From: a virus
Taxonomy: Duplodnaviria > Heunggongvirae > Uroviricota > Caudoviricetes
Virus record (IMG/VR): IMGVR_UViG_3300029064_000011
Length of the DNA: 13,214 nucleotides
Reading direction: 5' to 3' (one strand)
Below, one piece after another: positions 1 through 13,214 of the stretch. Position numbers and translations under genes: made by a program. Position 1 is the first letter of the stretch. Every line of letters begins with the position of its first letter. The notes beneath the pieces are model-generated. The model saw nothing but the letters and a program-made list of their open reading frames with translations, was not told where the DNA came from and searched no databases.

Positions 1-1461
1 ATGAAAAAATTACTGCATCTTTTTTTCCCGCTCTCGCTGCGGGTACGTTTTCTGTTAGCAACGGCAGCAGTAGTATTGGTGCTTTCGCTTGCCTACGGAA
101 TGGTTGCGCTGATCGGTTATAGCGTCAGTTTCGATAAAACCACGTTTCGGCTGTTACGTGGCGAGAGCAATCTGTTCTATACCCTTGCGAAGTGGGAAAA
201 CAATAAGTTGCATGTCGAGTTACCCGAAAATATCGACAAGCAAAGCCCCACGATGACACTAATTTATGATGAGAACGGGCAGCTTTTATGGGCGCAACGT
301 GACGTGCCCTGGCTGATGAAGATGATCCAGCCTGACTGGCTGAAATCGAATGGTTTTCATGAAATTGAAGCGGATGTTAACGATACCAGCCTCTTGCTGA
401 GTGGAGATCATTCGATACAGCAACAGTTGCAGGAAGTGCGGGAAGATGATGACGACGCGGAGATGACCCACTCGGTGGCGGTAAACGTCTACCCGGCAAC
501 ATCGCGGATGCCAAAGTTAACCATTGTGGTGGTGGATACCATTCCGGTGGAGCTAAAAAGTTCCTATATGGTCTGGAGCTGGTTTATCTATGTGCTCTCA
601 GCCAATCTGCTGTTAGTGATCCCGCTGCTGTGGGTCGCCGCCTGGTGGAGTTTACGCCCCATCGAAGCCCTGGCAAAAGAAGTCCGCGAACTGGAAGAAC
701 ATAACCGTGAATTGCTCAATCCAGCCACAACGCGAGAACTGACCAGTCTGGTACGAAACCTGAACCGACTGTTAAAAAGTGAACGCGAACGTTACGACAA
801 ATATCGTACGACGCTCACCGACCTGACCCATAGTCTGAAAACGCCACTGGCGGTGCTGCAAAGTACGCTGCGTTCTCTGCGTAGTGAGAAGATGAGCGTC
901 AGTGATGCTGAGCCGGTAATGCTGGAGCAAATCAGCCGCATTTCACAGCAAATTGGCTACTACCTGCATCGTGCCAGTATGCGCGGCGGGACATTGCTTA
1001 GCCGCGAGCTGCATCCGGTCGCCCCACTGTTGGACAATCTCACCTCGGCGCTGAACAAAGTGTATCAACGCAAAGGGGTCAATATCTCTCTCGATATCTC
1101 GCCAGAAATCAGCTTTGTTGGTGAGCAGAATGATTTTGTCGAAGTGATGGGCAACGTGCTGGATAACGCCTGTAAATATTGCCTCGAGTTTGTCGAAATT
1201 TCTGCAAGGCAAACCGACGAGCATCTCTATATTGTGGTCGAGGATGATGGCCCCGGTATTCCATTAAGCAAGCGAGAGGTCATTTTCGACCGTGGTCAAC
1301 GGGTTGATACTTTACGCCCTGGGCAAGGTGTGGGGCTGGCGGTAGCCCGCGAAATCACCGAGCAATATGAGGGTAAAATCGTCGCCGGAGAGAGCATGCT
1401 GGGCGGTGCGCGGATGGAAGTGATTTTTGGTCGCCAGCATTCTGCGCCGAAAGATGAATAA
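1..1461 (+). CDS. phoQ: Sensor histidine kinase PhoQ of the PhoP/PhoQ two-component system, complete 486 aa
   Basis: Full-length ORF with ATG start. Two hydrophobic segments flank a periplasmic domain containing an acidic patch (EDDDDAE), followed by a phospho-acceptor H-box ([10 protein letters not shown]) and ATPase motifs ([20 protein letters not shown]). Matches enterobacterial PhoQ as I remember it. Confidence 0.96.
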
Positions 1462-2062
1462 ATATGTCCTTTTATCACCACAGCAAGACAACCCATTGAT
1501 TTAATTAAACAACCCACACTGCAAAAAGTGCTAAAAACAGCAAATTGACTACACCATTAACTACACCGTTCGGTGCACTGTATGAAACAACGTGGAACAA
1601 ATAGACACAAGAAATATACAGGCGGGTAATCTTTCCAGGGGGAAGCGCACCAATTCATGAGGGGCGTTAATGTCGATATGGGGATCCCCATAACGGGGCT
1701 ACCGGATTTTTTTTCCGGTTAACTGTTAATCAGGCTGGTGGGTTTTACCTGTTCGGTAGGAGTTATGATTATCGTAATACCTTTCCCCCAGTGGGGTAAA
1801 AGCTCCAACCGTAACGATGTTCGTTGTGGTTGCCTTGATGGTCTGCGTGGTCATTATGACCATTCAGAATATGAAGGGTGACGCTTCCGACTTCCTCAAA
1901 TTGAGGTTTCCGAAAATATCAGCGGGTTAGCGATTAATCTGACCATTAATTAAACTACGAAAATTTCGTAGTTTGTGAATATATTCCGGCCTTCTGATTA
2001 ACAGTCCTCAGATGTGAGGGATGTAGCCAGCGCAATTTTGCGTTATCGGGAATATCAGCAAG

Positions 2063-6496: not shown

Positions 6497-6543
6497 ATTT
6501 ATTTTTACCCCCTCGTTTAAAAAGTTTTGAGTTGTGCCTCCCC

Positions 6544-6772
6544 TTGTCTACCTTATCTACCTTAGTGGCCCTCATACCAGTAATGGCGCGGCTTTCAGCG
6601 GGGTAGAGTGCTTTTATCCACTATCTACCCCGTGTCTACCTCCCTGTCTGATTCAGGTAAAATCAGGTAGAGAGGGTAGATAGTGGGTAGACAGTAAAAA
6701 AAGGTTATCTACCTAACTTAATGCACTGAATTAAATGTATTTTTCTTTACTCAGGTAGACAGGGTAGACAGC
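6544..6772. repeat. Iteron array, putative replication origin
   Basis: At least 11 copies of GGTAGA(C/T)AG or its complement in both orientations (for example 6545-6552, 6554-6561, 6622-6629, 6632-6640, 6666-6672, 6674-6681, 6685-6693, 6705-6712, 6754-6762, 6764-6772), with an AT-rich stretch at 6693-6750. Lies immediately 3' of the primase-helicase gene. Confidence 0.7.
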
Positions 6773-6784
6773 AATTACAAAAAA

Positions 6785-8539
6785 TTATAAAAACGCGTCG
6801 CACTCGTCTGTTGTTATTGCGTTAGTCTGCGTTACTCCCTTAACTTTCCGCGTAATATATTCATGTCCGTAAACTTTCGCGGCTGGCTTCATAGCCTTGC
6901 CAAAGTCATTTACGTTTAGCGGTTTGCTCCTGCCTGCGTACGCCATAAACGCCAGATAGACGCGGTAAAGGCTGTTTCTGGTCGTGTACTTCACTGAATC
7001 GCCACCGCCGCCCATCATCAGGCCGCGTGCTTCCTCCAGAAAATTCAGGAACTGGCAAAACTCAATAACCGGATCCGTCTGTTGCTTTATTGCCAGAGCT
7101 TCATCACCGTCACGCTGTTCCAGTAGTAAAGCCCGTGCCTTCTCAGGGTCGGTAAAGTTCGCCAGCAATCGGCGGATAATGACAGGGATTTCAGCCGCGA
7201 TCTTTTCCGGTAGCTCCCTGTCTTTTTCGGCCTCACTGACGATATTGTCGAAACGGAAAATCACGCGACGACGTGCCACACCTCCGGCCCGTTCGGTGAA
7301 TATCATCGGGTTATTGTTGGTCGCCAGCACCACCGCCCTGATTACCGCCGTGAAACGCTTTTCGTATTTCGGGTTAATTTCCACGGGGTCACCGCCCGTG
7401 ATTTTCTTGATGCCCGTTCCTTCGCCTGTATATTTCGGCTGGTCAGCCAGGACGATAAGACGACTCCCGACAACCTGCGCACGTCCACCAGCATCATCAA
7501 GCGATGTCATTTCAGCGCTTACCGTGTTCTGTTTCCCTGCCAGAAGGCTAGCTATGTGTGTGAATGTACTTTTACCGCTCCCGCCGTCTCCGGTGGCCTC
7601 AATAAACATCTGCCAGTCGTACCGGTTCGCCATAATCATGTACAGCGCGGCACATATACGCATCATCTTGCGCGGGTCTTTTCCGGCTGCGTGCTCAAGC
7701 CATTTATGAAAGTTTGGCGCGTTATCGCGGATGTTCTCCCCTGGTGCTGGTGGCGTGTACTCAATGCCGTTGTGCGTGGTGATCCAGTTCTCCGGCGTGT
7801 GCGGGGAAAATTCCCCCGTTTTCAGGTCAAGCGCACCATTGGCGAACGGCAACAAATCGCCGGACGGCTCGCCCATTGGTTCGGCAATAACTTTTAACGC
7901 TTCCACGGCGTTATTGATTACGCGCTTGCTGAAAGTGGCCCTGTGCTCTGAATAGATCGCCACCATTTCGCGGCTAAGTTCCATTGTGCTGACCGGACAC
8001 CATACCCCGCCGCGCCATACGTGAACGATTTCACTTTCAGGATGTACGCAAACGCCATCAAAGCGATCGGCAAGCAGCTGCGCGCGCTCACTGTCCGCCA
8101 TCTGCGAAAGTTGCGCCTTTTGCTTTACCGGAAGCTCAATGACCAGACCATCAGAAAGATTCTGGCGCTCACGGGCCAGATATTCGCGCCAGTTCTCCAC
8201 CTTCTGACCGTGCATACCATCAGGGTAAAAATTTGCATCCTGTACGCCTGCCGCCGCCAGCTTCTGACCAATCGCCTTTATCATTACTGGCGCAAGATAT
8301 CCGGCCCTGAATATGCGCACGGATTTTCTGCCTTCCGGCACAATTTGCAGCTTATCCAGTTCGGATAACTGCTGCTCCCCAAGCCACACAGGAGTCTCAT
8401 TATCTCCGGCCATACGCGCGTCATGTTCCTGCCATTGTTTTGCGTGTGACCAGGCATCACTACCCGCAAAAATAATGACTTCTGTTTCTTTGTGTTTTAT
8501 GCCGCGTGACTGCTGTTTTACGTTCGGTGCCAGTTTCAT
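6785..8539 (-). CDS. Primase-helicase replication initiator (P4-family phage/plasmid primase C-terminal domain with D5-like NTPase), 584 aa
   Basis: Walker A TGDGGSGKST and Walker B-like RLIVLADQ in the C-terminal half. Domain order and size are typical of satellite pri-rep proteins. Origin iterons directly downstream. Start overlaps the upstream 99-aa ORF. Confidence 0.88.
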   Translation of the reverse strand: MKLAPNVKQQSRGIKHKETEVIIFAGSDAWSHAKQWQEHDARMAGDNETPVWLGEQQLSELDKLQIVPEGRKSVRIFRAGYLAPVMIKAIGQKLAAAGVQDANFYPDGMHGQKVENWREYLARERQNLSDGLVIELPVKQKAQLSQMADSERAQLLADRFDGVCVHPESEIVHVWRGGVWCPVSTMELSREMVAIYSEHRATFSKRVINNAVEALKVIAEPMGEPSGDLLPFANGALDLKTGEFSPHTPENWITTHNGIEYTPPAPGENIRDNAPNFHKWLEHAAGKDPRKMMRICAALYMIMANRYDWQMFIEATGDGGSGKSTFTHIASLLAGKQNTVSAEMTSLDDAGGRAQVVGSRLIVLADQPKYTGEGTGIKKITGGDPVEINPKYEKRFTAVIRAVVLATNNNPMIFTERAGGVARRRVIFRFDNIVSEAEKDRELPEKIAAEIPVIIRRLLANFTDPEKARALLLEQRDGDEALAIKQQTDPVIEFCQFLNFLEEARGLMMGGGGDSVKYTTRNSLYRVYLAFMAYAGRSKPLNVNDFGKAMKPAAKVYGHEYITRKVKGVTQTNAITTDECDAFL

Positions 8540-9875: not shown

Positions 9876-10095
9876 GTACCCCTCCGCATTTTTTTTCGTT
9901 AGAAATAAGCGTTCTTCTTTCCTGTTCATCGCTCAGGAATACGCAGACCTCACCGCTAAGGCGTTTAAGTAAGCCGATGATTGCCCCTGATTCGCTGTCG
10001 GTCATCATGCCAGGGTAATCCTCTGCCAGTGCGCAAATAACTTCGATTTGGTGGGCGCGTTCTGCTGCCTGTTGTAGTGTGATTTCCTGGCTCAT
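9865..10095 (-). CDS. Hypothetical protein, 76 aa
   Basis: ORF with GGGGGTAGG SD. Its ATG overlaps the stop of the upstream 66-codon reading frame (ATGA). Confidence 0.45.
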   Translation of the reverse strand: MSQEITLQQAAERAHQIEVICALAEDYPGMMTDSESGAIIGLLKRLSGEVCVFLSDEQERRTLISNEKKCGGVHVQ

Positions 10096-10292
10096 AAGCC
10101 TACCCCCTGACGAATACGGGCAGCAAATACCATCACGCAGCCAGCCGGAGATTGCTGGCGTGCTTCCTGTTCGCTGGTGGCCTCAATGGTAATCACGCGC
10201 GGTTGTGCCGTGCTCAGGGCGATAAAACGCCAGATGTATTTATTCAGGTTGTGCGAGTCCCGCCCTTGCGGGTGTGTGGTATGATTTCTCAT
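10092..10292 (-). CDS. Hypothetical protein, 66 aa, candidate first gene of the leftward operon
   Basis: ATG at 10290-10292 preceded by GAGGTAG. Stop overlaps the start of the 76-aa gene. This is the C-terminal in-frame part of the 428-codon ORF 10092..11378. Starts about 95 bp from the operator cluster. Confidence 0.4.
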   Translation of the reverse strand: MRNHTTHPQGRDSHNLNKYIWRFIALSTAQPRVITIEATSEQEARQQSPAGCVMVFAARIRQGVGL

Positions 10293-11378
10293 AGCTACCT
10301 CGATACTTTCGCTATCGTTGGTGGTTAGAAGCCCGGTTAGTGTTAGCGCACTGCCGGGTTTCGTCGTTTCTGCACCTTGCGCCAACAAGGTGTTGAACAC
10401 CAATTTAAACCCAGGTGTTAAACACGTCAAGTGTTGAACACTTATTTTTTTTCCTGCATACTGCATTTGTTTTTTATGAGGGGTACACCACATGGCGACA
10501 AAAGCGGTAAACGCAAAATCACAAACCGTTGCGGCAAGGGTTCCGCATGAAGTTATGAACAATGTTGAGGCGGTAAAAATGCCTGGCGAAAGTACGGGGC
10601 AATTTGTTACTGCGGCATTAAAACGAGAAGTTGAATATCGCCAGCGGCGCAAGGCCAAAGAACCAGAGTAATCACCATCAGCGCCGTGGTGTAAGGTATT
10701 ACGGCGCATTGCTATGCAGGACAACACAATGACCGATAAAGAATTGACCAAAACATTATCACCGGCACGGAAAAGACGGCGCAGAAAGATAGAGCATGAA
10801 TCAGAAAGATTCGCGCCATGTGCTTTTGCCCTTGAGCAATTCCTTAAAGAGTACAGGGAAAAGCGCTCATTGCAGGTATGGCAACGAACTGAACCAGACT
10901 GATTGCATTGCCCACCAGCCGCAAATGTGGCATTGTTGGCAATGCTCATGCGTTGGGGATAACGTGTAGCTTGTGTCGAGGGGCCACCGTAGCGGGTGGC
11001 CTTTGTTTTGCCCGTTATTCGGCAATTGTGGCGCTTCTCCACATGGTTGATATAATCCCACTGCTCAGATTCATTTTTTGCGCAGTAGGTTAATTGTTCA
11101 CAAAGGCGCTCCGGCAACGGGGCGCTTTTTGTTTTTATTAGTTTGTAGAAACCTGACTCAGAGATAATGCTCATATTCTGATTGCCGTCAGGGGTGTAAG
11201 TTAAATTTACTCCCTTTTTATCATCAAACATCTGCAACGCTCTGGCGTTAACAATATTGGTTTCACTCCCGCCAGTAAGGCCGGAAATAACCGGAATAAT
11301 TTCGGCAAAATTTTGCAGATTCTGTTTTTCAGGACGAACGAAGCCCCGCCCTTGTTCGGGAGAATATCCAGTATTCAT
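10092..11378 (-). CDS. 428-codon ORF, probably not one real gene; N-terminal roughly 115 codons resemble a BRO-N/antirepressor-like domain, the middle overlaps the + strand RHH cassette
   Basis: N-terminal part contains ISESGFYKLIKTKSAP, reminiscent of the BRO-N motif I-E-G-LY-LI-S-P. The rest has skewed Cys/Ser/Thr-rich composition and runs antisense through operators, the RHH gene and two + strand terminators. Weak SD at the 11378 ATG. Confidence 0.25.
   Translation of the reverse strand: MNTGYSPEQGRGFVRPEKQNLQNFAEIIPVISGLTGGSETNIVNARALQMFDDKKGVNLTYTPDGNQNMSIISESGFYKLIKTKSAPLPERLCEQLTYCAKNESEQWDYINHVEKRHNCRITGKTKATRYGGPSTQATRYPQRMSIANNATFAAGGQCNQSGSVRCHTCNERFSLYSLRNCSRAKAHGANLSDSCSIFLRRLFRAGDNVLVNSLSVIVLSCIAMRRNTLHHGADGDYSGSLALRRWRYSTSRFNAAVTNCPVLSPGIFTASTLFITSCGTLAATVCDFAFTAFVAMWCTPHKKQMQYAGKKISVQHLTCLTPGFKLVFNTLLAQGAETTKPGSALTLTGLLTTNDSESIEVAMRNHTTHPQGRDSHNLNKYIWRFIALSTAQPRVITIEATSEQEARQQSPAGCVMVFAARIRQGVGL
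10388..10442. promoter_or_regulatory. Three palindromic operator-like sites in a divergent promoter region
   Basis: GGTGTT-G-AACACC (10388-10400), GTGTT-A-AACAC (10414-10424) and AAGTGTT-G-AACACTT (10428-10442). The third overlaps a candidate rightward promoter: -35 TTGAAC (10433-10438), 17-nt spacer, -10 CATACT (10456-10461). Confidence 0.6.
10491..10670 (+). CDS. Ribbon-helix-helix (Arc/CopG-like) DNA-binding protein, 59 aa
   Basis: Not in the ORF track because it is under 60 aa; translated by hand as MATKAVNAKSQTVAARVPHEVMNNVEAVKMPGESTGQFVTAALKREVEYRQRRKAKEPE. The N-terminal strand-like RVPHEV followed by two helices is the classic RHH pattern. GAGGGG SD. The operator cluster lies immediately upstream. 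Confidence 0.6.
10714..10902 (+). CDS. Small, very basic hypothetical protein (58-62 aa), second gene of the + strand cassette
   Basis: ORF track entry 10714..10902. An AGGA SD favours the second ATG at 10729 (MTDKELTK...). Contains an RKRRRRK tract. Followed by an intrinsic terminator. Confidence 0.4.
   Translation: MQDNTMTDKELTKTLSPARKRRRRKIEHESERFAPCAFALEQFLKEYREKRSLQVWQRTEPD
10982..11009 (+). terminator. Rho-independent terminator of the + strand RHH cassette
   Basis: GGCCACC-gtagcg-GGTGGCC hairpin (10982-11001) followed by TTTGTTTT. Confidence 0.55.
11106..11136 (+). terminator. Second + strand rho-independent terminator
   Basis: GCGCTCCG-GCAA-CGGGGCGC hairpin (8 bp including one G-U pair, GNRA-like tetraloop) followed by TTTTTGTTTTT. 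Confidence 0.55.
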
Positions 11379-11430
11379 GGTTAGATCTCTGTATTAGTGG
11401 ATGGGTGGCGGCTGTGTGCCGCCAGCCTGA

Positions 11431-11619
11431 TTAGTGAACTGCCTCGCAGCTGTCCTTCCATGCCAGAACTTCGGATAAAGACCAGCCAACGGAACGACCG
11501 CCCAGCTTACGCCGTGATGGGAATTGTCCGGCTTTTTCCAGGCGGTACCGACATGAGCGGCTCAGGCCTGTAAGTTGCTGACATTCTTTTTCACGTATAA
11601 AGCGATCTGTGCTTAACAC
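11431..11619 (-). CDS. alpA: AlpA-family transcriptional regulator (excisionase-like HTH), 62 aa, GTG start
   Basis: Pattern LTGLSRSCRYRLEKAGQFPSRRKLGGRSVGWSLSEVLAW fits the Phage_AlpA family (TG-SR-T-Y, FP-P-LG-RSVGW, E-W). AAGGGGGAA SD 4-5 nt upstream of the GTG. Positioned next to the integrase as in PICIs and P4-like islands. Confidence 0.8.
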   Translation of the reverse strand: MLSTDRFIREKECQQLTGLSRSCRYRLEKAGQFPSRRKLGGRSVGWSLSEVLAWKDSCEAVH

Positions 11620-11900
11620 AATTCCCCCTTTGTTGTTTCTTAAAGAGTCATTGGGTGGATTATTGGGTTGGGTTGTGTCGGATTGTGTCAGGGTGTTTGT
11701 GGAATGGCAAACACTGGCGGCGGTCGTTTTACAGAAGCAGGGGGAATGAGAATAAAAACTCTTTTAATTCATTATGATGCAAAGGCATAAAATTTTACTT
11801 TTACGCCTTTTTTACATATTTTTAAGAGTGATTCGCCAGTGTATAAAAAAACAGTACACCTATAAAAATCAAATGGTTATTACGATGGCTGATTTTTAAC

Positions 11901-11960
11901 CCGTTGTTCCATTTTGTTCCTTGTTGTTCGTCGTTGTGTCTCGTTGTTTCACGTTGTCCG
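11901..11960. repeat. Six tandem 10-bp direct repeats (consensus TCGTTGTTYC) between int and alpA
   Basis: Perfectly phased units ccgttgttcc, attttgttcc, ttgttgttcg, tcgttgtgtc, tcgttgtttc, acgttgtccg. A related GT-rich pair (gggttgtgtc, ggattgtgtc) lies at about 11667-11686. Confidence 0.55.
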
Positions 11961-11984
11961 CATCCTGAAAAATCGCAAAAAAAA

Positions 11985-13214
11985 TTATATTTCTCTGGCT
12001 ATTGGCAATGTGGTTACGTTTTCATGTGTTCCCGCCAGTATCCCTAACCGCTCCGTCCACATATCCAGCGCGTCACGTTTCGCATCCAGATAACGGGAAT
12101 GGTTATAGACTCGTTGCATCCCTGGCATCTGATGACCTGTAAGCTGCTCCACGACGTGAGGATCCACGCCTAAATCGTTCAGCATCGTTGTAAAGGTGCG
12201 CCGGATGTCATGCAGTGACCAGTGAGGGTGTTTTAGCCTCCTGTGCGCTAATCTGCCGTACTGCGACACGCTTGTTTCCTGTTTCACTTCCCCCAGCAAT
12301 AAGCCCGTGTGCCTGTTCTGCTCCACCAGCTGCGTGACGAACGGCAGTATTGCTTCCGGTATGGGCCGGAATATTGCCACCTTCGTTTTGCTGTGTTCTT
12401 TCGGCACGGTCCAGAGCATTTCGGTAAAATCCCACTCGCTGATCTCCGATAACCTCAGTTCTACCGTCCGGCATCCGAAAACAATCAGGAGGCGGATTAG
12501 TGCGACGTAGTAAGGGGAAAATATTTTTTTGTCCAGTGCCTGCAATAATTCGCCAAGTTCTTTGGTGCTTAAGACACGCTCGCTTATATCCGGTTTTTTC
12601 CCAACGTCCGCCACACTCATATCATCAAGAACGTTGCTGATTGCATAGCGCCGCCTCCGGCAGAACTTAAGCGCCTGTTTGCACGTCTGTAGCAAGAATC
12701 CGGCAGTAACAGGCGTTCGCTTTGCCACCTGGTCAAAACAGGCCAGCCAGTGCCGTAGCTCGCATTTATCCAGCGGCATAGCACCAATGTGCTGTATTAC
12801 GTGATTATTAAGGCGCTTTTTCAGGGCGGCATAATCCACGCGGTTTTCCTTTACGTAAGACTCAAGCCAGTAGGTAAGCGCATCGCCAACCGTTACGGGC
12901 TTTAACGCTTTCTGTACGGTGTAATTCATCTCATGACGTGGATTTTTCCCCTCAGCAAGCCAAGCGCGACACTGTGCCGCTTTTTCCCTGGCAGCTTTCA
13001 GACTCAGATCAGGATAATTTCCCAGCTTAATCCGTTCCGGTCGTGCTCCCCTTCCCGTTCCGGCCCTGTAGGTGAAATACCAGGTTAAAAGGCCGCTGGT
13101 TGAATGCCTGACGCTCAGGTTTCCACCGTCATTAAGAAAGGCTGTTTTTTGGGCGGGTGTGCCGTTGATTTTCCTCAGCTGTGTATCGCTCAGTTTGTTA
13201 AGTGCTCTGCTCAT
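11985..13214 (-). CDS. int: Tyrosine recombinase, P4-type integrase, 409 aa; start codon at the last window base
   Basis: N-terminal arm-binding domain pattern (LSDTQLRK, NDGGNLSV, WYFTYR, LGNYPDLSLKAAREK) typical of P4-like integrases. C-terminal catalytic motifs HDIRRTF and RVYNHSRY. The N-terminal pattern suggests the ATG at 13212-13214 is the true start. Confidence 0.93.
   Translation of the reverse strand: MSRALNKLSDTQLRKINGTPAQKTAFLNDGGNLSVRHSTSGLLTWYFTYRAGTGRGARPERIKLGNYPDLSLKAAREKAAQCRAWLAEGKNPRHEMNYTVQKALKPVTVGDALTYWLESYVKENRVDYAALKKRLNNHVIQHIGAMPLDKCELRHWLACFDQVAKRTPVTAGFLLQTCKQALKFCRRRRYAISNVLDDMSVADVGKKPDISERVLSTKELGELLQALDKKIFSPYYVALIRLLIVFGCRTVELRLSEISEWDFTEMLWTVPKEHSKTKVAIFRPIPEAILPFVTQLVEQNRHTGLLLGEVKQETSVSQYGRLAHRRLKHPHWSLHDIRRTFTTMLNDLGVDPHVVEQLTGHQMPGMQRVYNHSRYLDAKRDALDMWTERLGILAGTHENVTTLPIAREI

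What the first reader, a model, noticed from the sequence alone, without database searches (positions are those of the whole stretch)
11641..11960. Phased 10-bp GT-rich direct repeats flanking the AT-rich alpA upstream region
Six tandem 10-bp units (11901-11960), in phase with the DNA helical repeat, plus a related repeat pair at 11667-11686 bracket the alpA promoter region. They could be binding sites for AlpA, integrase or a helper-encoded inducer. They are about 1.3 kb from the expected att site, which argues for a regulatory rather than recombination role.
Basis: seen in the sequence. Interest (0 to 1): 0.5.

Follow-up and report, generated by a model that had tools for sequence, protein, structure and literature searches.

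The report
Excisionase-type operator array upstream of alpA
The six phased 10-bp repeats are real and conserved, and they are most likely docking sites for the island's own small excisionase-like regulator AlpA, because the same motif arrays sit beside the integrase sites at both ends of this phage-parasitic island (an EcCICFT073-type PICI).

Summary
Read on the gene strand (-), 11960->11901 holds six head-to-tail 10-bp units (consensus GGAACAACGT, invariant core ACAA). No dinucleotide shuffle gives such an array. All 50 full-length distinct relatives carry it: cores are conserved, spacers vary, and copy number changes by whole units.

The window is a near-copy (99.5% over 10639-13214) of the prototype Gram-negative PICI EcCICFT073, inserted between phoQ and roxA.

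In the whole 16-kb island only three such arrays exist: this one, and one in each att arm next to a tandem 12-bp pair. The 12-bp pairs covary with the integrase N-terminal domain, so they are the Int arm-type sites. The phased units do not covary with it.

AlpA is a 62-aa winged-helix protein with an excisionase fold. Published reporters show that AlpA activates exactly the fragment 11562-12017.

Best reading: an operator array of the recombination-directionality-factor type, as in 186 Apl, P2 Cox and RdfS. It would couple alpA autoinduction with excision. Binding itself is inferred, not shown.

A helper-phage protein acting on the array remains possible. The array belongs to a known kind of element; its sites in PICIs had not been mapped in the literature I could search.

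The parts
11901..11960 (-). Distal array: six head-to-tail 10-bp units, consensus GGAACAACGT with invariant core ACAA. It begins 25 bp after the int stop codon and spans about -226 to -285 from the predicted alpA transcription start.
   Evidence: statistics; present in 50/50 full-length relatives, cores conserved, spacers variable; position weight matrix.
11650..11689 (-). Proximal cluster: GACACAATCC GACACAACCC AACCCAATAA TCCACCCAAT. The first three CAAY cores are 10 bp apart. The cluster overlaps the -10 and the early transcribed region of PalpA.
   Evidence: The O157-type relatives have a 10-bp deletion that keeps TTGCCA-N17-AACAAT.
11682..11710 (-). Predicted sigma-70 promoter PalpA: TTGCCA, 17 bp, TG-n-CACAAT.
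   Evidence: TTGCCA and (C/A)ACAAT at 17-bp spacing occur in all 49 relatives scored. The promoter is predicted only; no transcription start has been mapped.
11781..11810 (-). Conserved hairpin in the AT-rich spacer, probably the int terminator or a bidirectional terminator.
   Evidence: As - strand RNA it folds at -16.6 kcal/mol (z -4.6), and as + strand RNA at -10.1 kcal/mol (z -2.2). G.U wobbles occur on the - strand.
11431..11619 (-). alpA: a 62-aa winged-helix protein of the Phage_AlpA family with an excisionase-like fold. It is the proposed binder.
   Evidence: Pfam PF05930, E = 3e-18. AF2 model with pLDDT 88.5. Foldseek top hit is the GIsul2 excisionase 8C3T; RdfS, TorI and BldC also match. 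It is 47% identical to P4 Vis.
11985..13214 (-). int: a P4-type tyrosine integrase with an N-terminal arm-DNA-binding domain.
   Evidence: Pfam PF13356, PF00589. RefSeq gives the same Int protein accession (WP_000085269.1) for EcCICFT073 and for L001, whose DNA matches window 11380-12100 at 100%; the window's own int DNA is 99.5% identical to the EcCICFT073 int region.
1584..1613 (+). Left att-arm array: GAAACAACGT GGAACAAATA GACACAAGAA, three phased units of the same motif.
   Evidence: 3-unit PWM score 30.4 bits.
1544..1567 (+). Tandem 12-bp pair ATTGACTACACC ATTAACTACACC: Int arm-type sites of the left arm. The partner pair and a 4-unit ACAA array lie just upstream of the int ATG, outside the window (L011 14465-14535).
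   Evidence: The architecture matches the annotated P4 attP arm repeats. The pairs covary with the Int N-terminal domain.
1460..1469 (+). att core copy AAATATGTCC, overlapping the phoQ stop codon. It is repeated at the roxA-side end of the island.
   Evidence: Relatives inserted at allE and abgR diverge right after the island end.

Best explanation
The array is an operator of the recombination-directionality-factor (excisionase) type for the island's own AlpA protein. AlpA is a 62-residue winged-helix protein. I propose that it binds head to tail, one protomer per helical turn, to the six G(G/A)AACAA(C/T)G(T/A) units and forms a short DNA-bending filament, as lambda Xis, 186 Apl, P2 Cox, BldC and RdfS do. 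The same motif forms a 3-unit and a 4-unit array next to the Int arm-type sites on the two att arms, where AlpA would act as excisionase. Upstream of alpA the six-unit array sits at a fixed distance from PalpA: 196-200 bp from the -35, and 221 bp (about 21 turns) from the unit that overlaps the -10. From there it would mediate the positive autoregulation of alpA that has been shown for EcCICFT073. The route is probably bending or looping across the AT-rich spacer, possibly relieving silencing. The weaker promoter-proximal units could cap expression at high AlpA levels. One rising AlpA concentration would then lock in alpA expression and trigger excision together. Shown: the repeats, their conservation, their uniqueness to three sites, the AlpA fold, and (by others) AlpA activation of the fragment 11562-12017. 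Inferred: that AlpA is the binder, the filament geometry, and the way activation is achieved.
For: (1) Six exactly phased units, far beyond chance.
(2) All 50 full-length distinct relatives carry the array. ACAA cores are about 0.9-1.0 conserved against 0.4-0.7 for spacers, and copy number changes by whole 10-bp units.
(3) In the complete 16-kb island ACAA/TTGT is the only 4-mer that forms several phased arrays. The three arrays are this one and one on each att arm beside the tandem 12-bp pairs.
(4) Within a clade whose AlpA helix-turn-helix is constant, the 12-bp pairs change with the Int N-terminal domain type while the phased units stay the same. The core type follows the excisionase clade: TTGT here, GTTC/GTTT in the 'CRTTRY' AlpA clade, and xTCC in P4 and CP4-57.
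(5) AlpA has an excisionase/MerR-type winged-helix fold and is 47% identical to P4 Vis.
(6) The window is 99.5% identical to EcCICFT073 over this region. There, AlpA supplied in trans activates a PalpA-lacZ fragment that maps to window 11562-12017, and AlpA expression alone causes int-dependent excision.
(7) The array-to-promoter distance is held at 196-200 bp in 48 of 49 relatives.
(8) Precedents exist for one such factor using direct repeats one turn apart both at att and at a promoter: 186 Apl, with 7 and 5 operators, and RdfS.
Against: No binding data exist for AlpA on any of these sites. In EcCICFT073, AlpA did not change expression of a Pint-lacZ fusion that contains the 4-unit att-arm array. 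AlpA either does not bind there without Int, or binds without affecting Pint. An array 226-285 bp upstream of the start site is unusually far for a simple activator. In the related PICI EcCIMP1, helper-dependent induction of an alpA reporter persisted in a delta-alpA mutant, so some other factor also acts on this kind of region. The covariation with excisionase clade coincides with major Int clades, so only the within-clade comparison separates the two proteins. In more distant AlpA clades no array lies upstream of alpA, because an extra ORF sits there.
Confidence: 0.58

Rival explanations
1. The array is the target of a helper-phage protein, for example the helper's own excisionase or another early regulator, which switches on alpA in trans. 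This would parallel P2 Cox, which binds three phased 10-bp boxes upstream of the P4 late-leftward promoter that drives vis.
For: Helper phages lambda and phi80 induce a reporter whose upstream end is 12017. Induction persists without alpA in EcCIMP1, and excisionase cross-talk is reported there. P4 carries three tandem 10-bp GCTTTAAGTG repeats about 150 bp upstream of vis; that these are Cox targets is my own recollection of Saha et al. 1989. The lambda X2 site shares GTTGTGT with unit 4.
Against: The motif also occupies both att arms of the island, where the island's own factor is expected. In a phased scan with the array PWM, the lambda Xis site region scores -0.1 bits against 25-35 bits for the island arrays, so there is no real match. 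The array lacks the Cox-box sequence TTAAAG. Helpers as different as lambda and phi80 both induce.
Confidence: 0.15
2. A host winged-helix response regulator that reads direct repeats (OmpR/PhoB family, ArcA, PhoP) binds the array and ties island induction to host physiology.
For: Six contiguous 10-bp direct repeats resemble the layout of OmpR F1-F3 sites, and TGTT-type cores resemble ArcA and PhoP half-sites. This rests on my own knowledge and was not tested here.
Against: ArcA and PhoP boxes have an 11-bp period, whereas this array is strictly 10 bp. The motif is tied to att arms beside Int sites across many islands at different chromosomal sites, which points to an element-encoded factor. 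The core changes with the island's excisionase clade.
Confidence: 0.07
3. The repeats have no specific protein partner. They would be slippage-generated tandem DNA that gives intrinsic curvature or nucleates H-NS on the AT-rich region.
For: The unit number varies (3-6 units counted by exact ACAA chains; the apparent 3-unit arrays are thought to include degenerate cores) by whole units. The neighbouring DNA is AT-rich. H-NS silences alpA in Shewanella CP4So.
Against: Conservation is highest in a 4-bp core and lowest in the spacers, the opposite of recent slippage. The same core is phased at two other functional sites. The distance to the promoter is fixed.
Confidence: 0.08
4. The units are additional integrase arm-type sites, used for Int autoregulation or for a secondary synapse.
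For: Lambda P'1-P'3 arm sites are themselves three contiguous 10-bp units. The array lies directly after int.
Against: A separate motif, the tandem 12-bp pair, has the position of the annotated P4 arm repeats and covaries with the Int N-terminal domain. The phased units do not. The array is about 1.4 kb from the core.
Confidence: 0.05
5. The array acts as RNA in the int 3' untranslated region, for example as a protein-binding CA-rich tract.
For: It lies between the int stop codon and a conserved hairpin. P4 Vis is reported to bind RNA as well.
Against: A strict 10-nt period is a DNA-helix property. The same motif occurs in untranscribed or oppositely oriented att arms. As RNA the tract is unstructured (z +1.9) and matches no Rfam family.
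Confidence: 0.03

Closest known systems
Coliphage 186 Apl operators (seven between pR and pL, five at attP)
   Same: One small excisionase uses short direct repeats spaced one helical turn apart both at the attachment site and at a promoter region. At least three adjacent units are needed, binding is cooperative, and the DNA is bent.
   Different: Apl represses two face-to-face promoters that its operators lie between. Here the large array is about 200 bp upstream of a promoter that AlpA activates. Apl is a sequence outlier, not a Phage_AlpA family member. Binding has not been shown here.
P4 Vis and the P4 attP / PLL region
   Same: Vis is the homologue of this AlpA (47% identity). P4 has the same arm layout: a tandem 12-bp pair about 20 bp before the int ATG, preceded by four phased short-core units. 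Vis is both an excisionase and a regulator of late promoters.
   Different: The core motif differs (xTCC against ACAA/TTGT). P4 has no int-vis intergenic array. Its three 10-bp repeats upstream of vis have a different sequence (GCTTTAAGTG) and are linked to the helper's Cox, from my own knowledge.
RdfS of ICEMlSymR7A, and BldC and lambda Xis filaments
   Same: These are winged-helix proteins of the same fold. They oligomerise head to tail with about one protomer per DNA turn. RdfS binds both attP and its own promoter, coordinating expression and excision.
   Different: RdfS and BldC show little or no sequence consensus. Here a clear 4-bp core is conserved. RdfS has an extra N-terminal helix that AlpA lacks.
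AlpA autoregulation in EcCICFT073 (Fillol-Salom et al. 2018)
   Same: It is the same element: the int-alpA region is 99.5% identical, with the same AlpA and Int protein accessions as L001, whose DNA is identical to the window here. AlpA activates PalpA, and helper phages induce it.
   Different: That work did not map any DNA site. The repeats, their copies in the att arms and the fixed spacing are described here from sequence.
Doubled motif in HE-PICI attP sites (PMC10111431)
   Same: A tandem doubled motif occurs once per arm, at about 81 and 132 bp from the attP centre. This matches the roughly 85 and 135 bp of the 12-bp pairs here.
   Different: That motif corresponds to the 12-bp pairs, not to the 10-bp arrays. 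Its binder was left open (Int or AlpA). The covariation here assigns the pairs to Int.

Membership tests
Recombination-directionality-factor (excisionase) operator array | Three or more direct repeats of a short core spaced one helical turn (10-11 bp) apart | tested here: met
   Six units at exactly 10 bp. No shuffle of the window exceeds 3 phased cores (0/300), and no shuffle of the 16-kb island gives any array of >=3 units (0/500).
Recombination-directionality-factor (excisionase) operator array | The same motif is present at the attachment site next to integrase arm-type sites | tested here: met
   A 3-unit array at window 1584-1613 and a 4-unit array at L011 14496-14535 each abut a tandem 12-bp pair. 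They are the only other arrays in the island.
Recombination-directionality-factor (excisionase) operator array | A small winged-helix excisionase-family protein is encoded by the element | tested here: met
   AlpA matches PF05930. The AF2 model's top match is the GIsul2 excisionase, and it also matches RdfS and TorI.
Recombination-directionality-factor (excisionase) operator array | The protein binds the repeats cooperatively and bends the DNA | not testable with these tools
   This needs EMSA or footprinting. No published binding data were found.
Recombination-directionality-factor (excisionase) operator array | The protein regulates transcription from the region that carries the repeats | tested here: met
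   This is literature evidence, not my own test. AlpA activates the lacZ fusion of fragment 11562-12017 in EcCICFT073. The responsible site within the fragment is unmapped.
Integrase arm-type sites | The sequence covaries with the integrase N-terminal arm-binding domain and lies within the att arms | tested here: not met
   The 12-bp pairs covary with the Int N-terminal type, whereas the phased units do not. The six-unit array is about 1.4 kb from the core.
P2 Cox boxes / lambda Xis sites (helper excisionase targets) | Match to the known site sequence (TTAAAG-N-CA; TATGT(A/T)GT(C/G)T(G/T)TT) | tested here: not met
   There is no TTAAAG in the array. The lambda X1-X2 region scores -0.1 bits with the array PWM against 25-35 bits for the island arrays. 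Helpers with other excisionases were not tested.
Replication-origin iterons | Repeats bound by the element's initiator, located at the origin (downstream of pri in Gram-negative PICIs) | tested here: not met
   Different repeats (GGTAGACAG, TCTACC...) lie downstream of the primase gene at 6542-6793. The literature places the ori downstream of pri.
Pseudomonas AlpA-type (Q-like) antiterminator loading site | A 21Q-like multi-helix AlpA protein, a binding element in the promoter spacer and a -10-like pause site | tested here: not met
   That AlpA is an eight-helix protein of more than 140 residues, structurally like 21Q. This AlpA is a 62-aa winged helix. Only the name is shared.

The most novel reading that the evidence does not exclude
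The six-unit array is the long-sought entry point for the helper phage. A helper-encoded excisionase-like or other early protein would recognise the island's AlpA-type operators and fire PalpA. AlpA then takes over the same sites. Gram-negative PICIs would thus sense their helpers through cross-recognition of excisionase operators, a general version of the P2 Cox to P4 relationship.
Probability: 0.12. Interest if true: 0.8.

Novelty: new member of a known kind. Interest (0 to 1): 0.5.

Why it matters
EcCICFT073 is the model Gram-negative PICI. AlpA is known to be its master switch, needed for induction and excision and activating its own promoter. The DNA sites it uses, and the way helper phages turn alpA on, had not been mapped in any paper I could find. 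This analysis points to a defined 60-bp element, gives a 10-bp consensus, and places two further arrays at the att arms. That turns 'AlpA acts somehow' into a set of precise mutagenesis and binding experiments. It also offers a single-protein explanation for how autoinduction and excision are coupled. The region occurs in 878 of 5426 complete E. coli genomes, including O157:H7.

Tried and rejected
- Rfam scan of the whole window: nothing in the region. The only hit is a weak, sub-threshold SymR-like match at 10293-10365.
- RNA folding of the array: unstructured, so an RNA element is unlikely.
- Pseudomonas AlpA antitermination model: rejected, because that protein is an unrelated 21Q-like fold.
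- Genome-contig scan with AlpA: only 3 loci, not informative.
- More distant AlpA clades: these have an extra ORF between int and alpA and no upstream array. They could not test concordance between the alpA-upstream and att-arm motifs, but they did provide the Int-versus-array covariation test.
- Lambda Xis site similarity: a shared 7-mer but no PWM match.
- Additional sigma-70 promoters next to the distal array: none found by the scan, and none convincing by eye.
- Papers on P4 Vis footprints (Cali 2004, Piazzolla 2006): not held.
- PDB entry 8C3T: no paper found.
- The relative L059 seemed to lack the array, but it has a single ACAA-to-ATAA change in unit 3.

Full report
**Context.** The window runs from phoQ (1-1461) into a mobile island whose genes all lie on the - strand. 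They are a P4-type integrase (11985-13214), alpA (11431-11619), a D5-type primase (6785-8539), SSB, a lambda-E-type capsid protein and a Nu1-type small terminase. Window 10639-13214 is 99.5% identical to EcCICFT073, the prototype Gram-negative phage-inducible chromosomal island, which lies between roxA and phoQ in strain CFT073. RefSeq gives the same Int (WP_000085269.1) and AlpA (WP_000953274.1) accessions for EcCICFT073 and for L001, whose DNA is 100% identical to window 11380-12100. The region of the finding occurs in 878 of 5426 complete E. coli genomes. The finding covers the 365-bp spacer between the int stop codon (11985) and the alpA start codon (11619).

**The observation.** On the gene strand, 11960->11901 reads cGGACAACGT GAAACAACGA GACACAACGA CGAACAACAA GGAACAAAAT GGAACAACGG.
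- TRF finds period 10.
- The lag-10 self-match (35 of 50) is the highest in the window and exceeds all 300 dinucleotide shuffles, whose maximum is 29.
- Six ACAA cores lie at exactly 10 bp, while no shuffle gives more than three.
It belongs to a cluster GACACAATCC GACACAACCC AACCCAATAA TCCACCCAAT (11689->11650), whose first three CAAY cores are 10 bp apart.
- This cluster overlaps, rather than flanks, the only sigma-70-like promoter found on the - strand: TTGCCA (11710-11705), 17 bp, TG-n-CACAAT (11687-11682).

**Conservation.**
- Ten E. coli relatives at 78-100% identity keep the AACAAY cores in 10-bp register while the spacers change.
- IMG/VR loci with AlpA at least 90% identical gave 52 distinct alpA-upstream sequences, 50 of them carrying an array. 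In the set of 50 full-length distinct sequences (49 of these plus the window), all carry the array. The one apparent exception has a single ACAA-to-ATAA change in one unit.
- Copy number differs by whole 10-bp units.
- Column conservation is about 0.9-1.0 in the ACAA cores and 0.4-0.7 in the spacers.
- The 33 distinct units give the consensus GGAACAACGT.
- The distance from the last distal core to the -35 hexamer is 196-200 bp in 48 of 49 relatives.
- The -10 is always (C/A)ACAAT at 17-bp spacing, even in the O157-type lineage, which has lost 10 bp of the proximal cluster.
- The last distal core and the core inside the -10 are 221 bp apart, about 21 helical turns.

**The key result: the motif also lies in both att arms.**
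- The island ends were located from a near-identical complete copy (L011) and from L001. A 10-bp core, AAATATGTCC, overlaps the phoQ stop codon (window 1460-1469) and recurs before roxA.
- Each arm carries a tandem 12-bp pair: ATTGACTACACC ATTAACTACACC at window 1544-1567, and ATTAACTACACC twice about 22 bp upstream of the int ATG.
- Directly beside each pair lies an array of the same phased ACAA units. There are three at window 1584-1613, and four at L011 14496-14535, just outside the window.
- In the whole 16-kb locus these two arrays and the six-unit array are the only arrays of three or more ACAA at 10-bp spacing.
- No such array appeared in 500 shuffles, and no other 4-mer (apart from the reverse complement TTGT) forms several arrays.
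- A phased position-weight-matrix scan scores the three arrays at 25-35 bits. Apart from windows that partly overlap these arrays, no unrelated site appeared among the top hits.
- Relatives inserted at roxA, allE or abgR all keep the pair-plus-array module upstream of int.

**Which protein reads which motif.**
- P4 (Vis is 47% identical to this AlpA) has the same layout. Its annotated 'attP arm sequence repeats' are tandem 12-bp pairs about 20 bp before the int ATG, preceded by four phased short-core units. CP4-57 is built the same way.
- In a broader set of PICI-like loci, the AlpA helix-turn-helix is essentially constant (ICRTTRYMMEKEG..RRKLGGRAVGW). Across that set the Int N-terminal domain falls into several types, and the 12-bp pair changes with it: GTGTAGTCAGT, GTGCAGTCAGT, GTGTATCAC.., GGTGTAGTCAT. 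The neighbouring phased GTT(C/T) units stay the same.
- The pairs are therefore the Int arm-type sites, and the phased units are not.
- The core of the phased units instead follows the excisionase clade: TTGT/ACAA for the EcCICFT073-type AlpA, GTTC/GTTT for the 'CRTTRY' clade, and xTCC for P4 Vis and CP4-57 AlpA.
- AlpA is a Phage_AlpA family protein. Its predicted beta-alpha-alpha-beta-beta-alpha winged-helix fold has pLDDT 88.5.
- Its best structural match is the GIsul2 transposon excisionase. RdfS, TorI, BldC and MerR-type DNA-binding domains also match.

**Link to experiments.** Fillol-Salom et al. (PMC6092414) showed the following in EcCICFT073:
- AlpA activates its own promoter.
- AlpA does not change a Pint fusion.
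- AlpA expression alone causes int-dependent excision and replication.
- Helpers lambda and phi80 induce alpA.

Their primers map exactly onto the window. The PalpA-lacZ fragment is 11562-12017, and all other fusions share the upstream end 12017. The AlpA-responsive and helper-responsive determinants therefore lie in a 456-bp fragment that contains the whole finding. No paper I could search maps the sites.

**Proposed mechanism.**
- The array has the defining anatomy of a recombination-directionality-factor operator: short direct repeats one helical turn apart, at least three in a row, present both at att and at a promoter. This is established for 186 Apl, with seven operators at pR-pL and five at attP, and for RdfS.
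- I therefore propose that AlpA forms a cooperative, DNA-bending filament on the six units.
- The fixed, in-phase distance to PalpA and the AT-rich spacer (GC 0.23-0.37) suggest activation by wrapping or looping, or by relief of silencing. H-NS represses alpA in Shewanella CP4So.
- The spacer also contains a conserved hairpin, 11781-11810 (-16.6 kcal/mol on the - strand, z -4.6), which probably terminates int.
- The promoter-proximal units overlap the -10 and the start region, so they could impose a ceiling at high AlpA levels.
- The att-arm arrays would serve excision.
- The binding, the geometry and the sign of each effect are inferences.

**Weak points and rivals.**
- AlpA did not affect the Pint fusion that includes the 4-unit arm array.
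- In EcCIMP1, helper induction of an alpA reporter persisted without alpA. A helper factor must therefore act on such regions too.
- The P2 Cox to P4 precedent (three 10-bp repeats upstream of vis) keeps a helper-protein target alive as the main rival. However, the array has no Cox-box sequence, and lambda Xis sites do not match its matrix (-0.1 bits).
- Host response regulators, Int, pure DNA structure and an RNA role are less likely, for the reasons listed under the rivals.
- The Pseudomonas 'AlpA' antiterminator is an unrelated protein.

**Verdict.** The feature is real, strongly conserved and functionally placed. It is best described as the regulatory copy of the island's excisionase-type operator. 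It is a new, unmapped member of a well-known kind of element, of moderate interest, mainly because it makes PICI induction and its coupling to excision directly testable.

Noticed in passing
window 11640-11652 and 11821-11833: A second conserved motif pair, AAT(G/C)ACTCTT(T/A)AA on the - strand, lies 181 bp apart. One copy is in the alpA 5' leader just before the Shine-Dalgarno sequence, and the other is in the AT-rich spacer. Both are among the best-conserved columns of the intergenic alignment. The binder is unknown, and the pair could be the helper-responsive element.
   Followed up: partly
window 11403-11427: A GC-rich hairpin lies directly after the alpA stop codon (-17.3 kcal/mol, z -4.9). 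It is conserved in relatives and has no T-run. It may be a processing, attenuation or Rho-linked signal between alpA and the downstream genes.
   Followed up: partly
window 6542-6793: A cluster of short tandem and dispersed repeats (CCTTATCTA, TCTACCTCCCTG, GGGTAGACAGT, GGTAGACAG) lies just downstream of the primase gene. A similar phased TACC array occurs in L012 at 8007-8040. These are probably the island's replication-origin iterons.
   Followed up: no
window 10092-11378 (-), 10492-10671 (+), 10714-10902 (+), 10293-10365 (+): A 428-aa ORF downstream of alpA has no Pfam hit. Its C-terminus matches a PHROG 'transcriptional repressor' family (E = 2e-54), and its N-terminus weakly matches Ant/anti-repressor families. 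On the opposite strand, RefSeq annotates two small genes in near-identical islands (YlcI/YnfO family and a hypothetical protein), which also match PHROGs. A sub-threshold SymR-like Rfam hit lies nearby. Which strand is coding here is unresolved. Convergent transcription toward alpA is possible.
   Followed up: partly
L106-L138 (about 40 bp before the alpA ATG), e.g. L109 3310-3350: In the 'CRTTRY' AlpA clade, a strong hairpin followed by T7 (e.g. ATGCTCTCGAACC..CGAGAGCATTTTTTT) sits immediately before the alpA start codon. Several loci also carry paired GTGATATCAC palindromes upstream. This suggests control of alpA by termination and antitermination or by a repressor, different from the EcCICFT073 clade.
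   Followed up: no
L011 14465-14535 / L001 4857-4927 (just beyond window position 13214): The int-proximal att arm (two ATTAACTACACC sites plus four phased ACAA units) lies immediately outside the window, about 22-90 bp upstream of the int ATG. Any analysis restricted to the window misses it.
   Followed up: yes
L099 8503-10052 (CFT073 prophage at icd): In CFT073, the excisionase gene of the lambdoid prophage at icd, named in the literature as the EcCICFT073 helper, is split by an IS3-family element. This bears on whether the helper's Xis could be the inducer in that strain.
   Followed up: no
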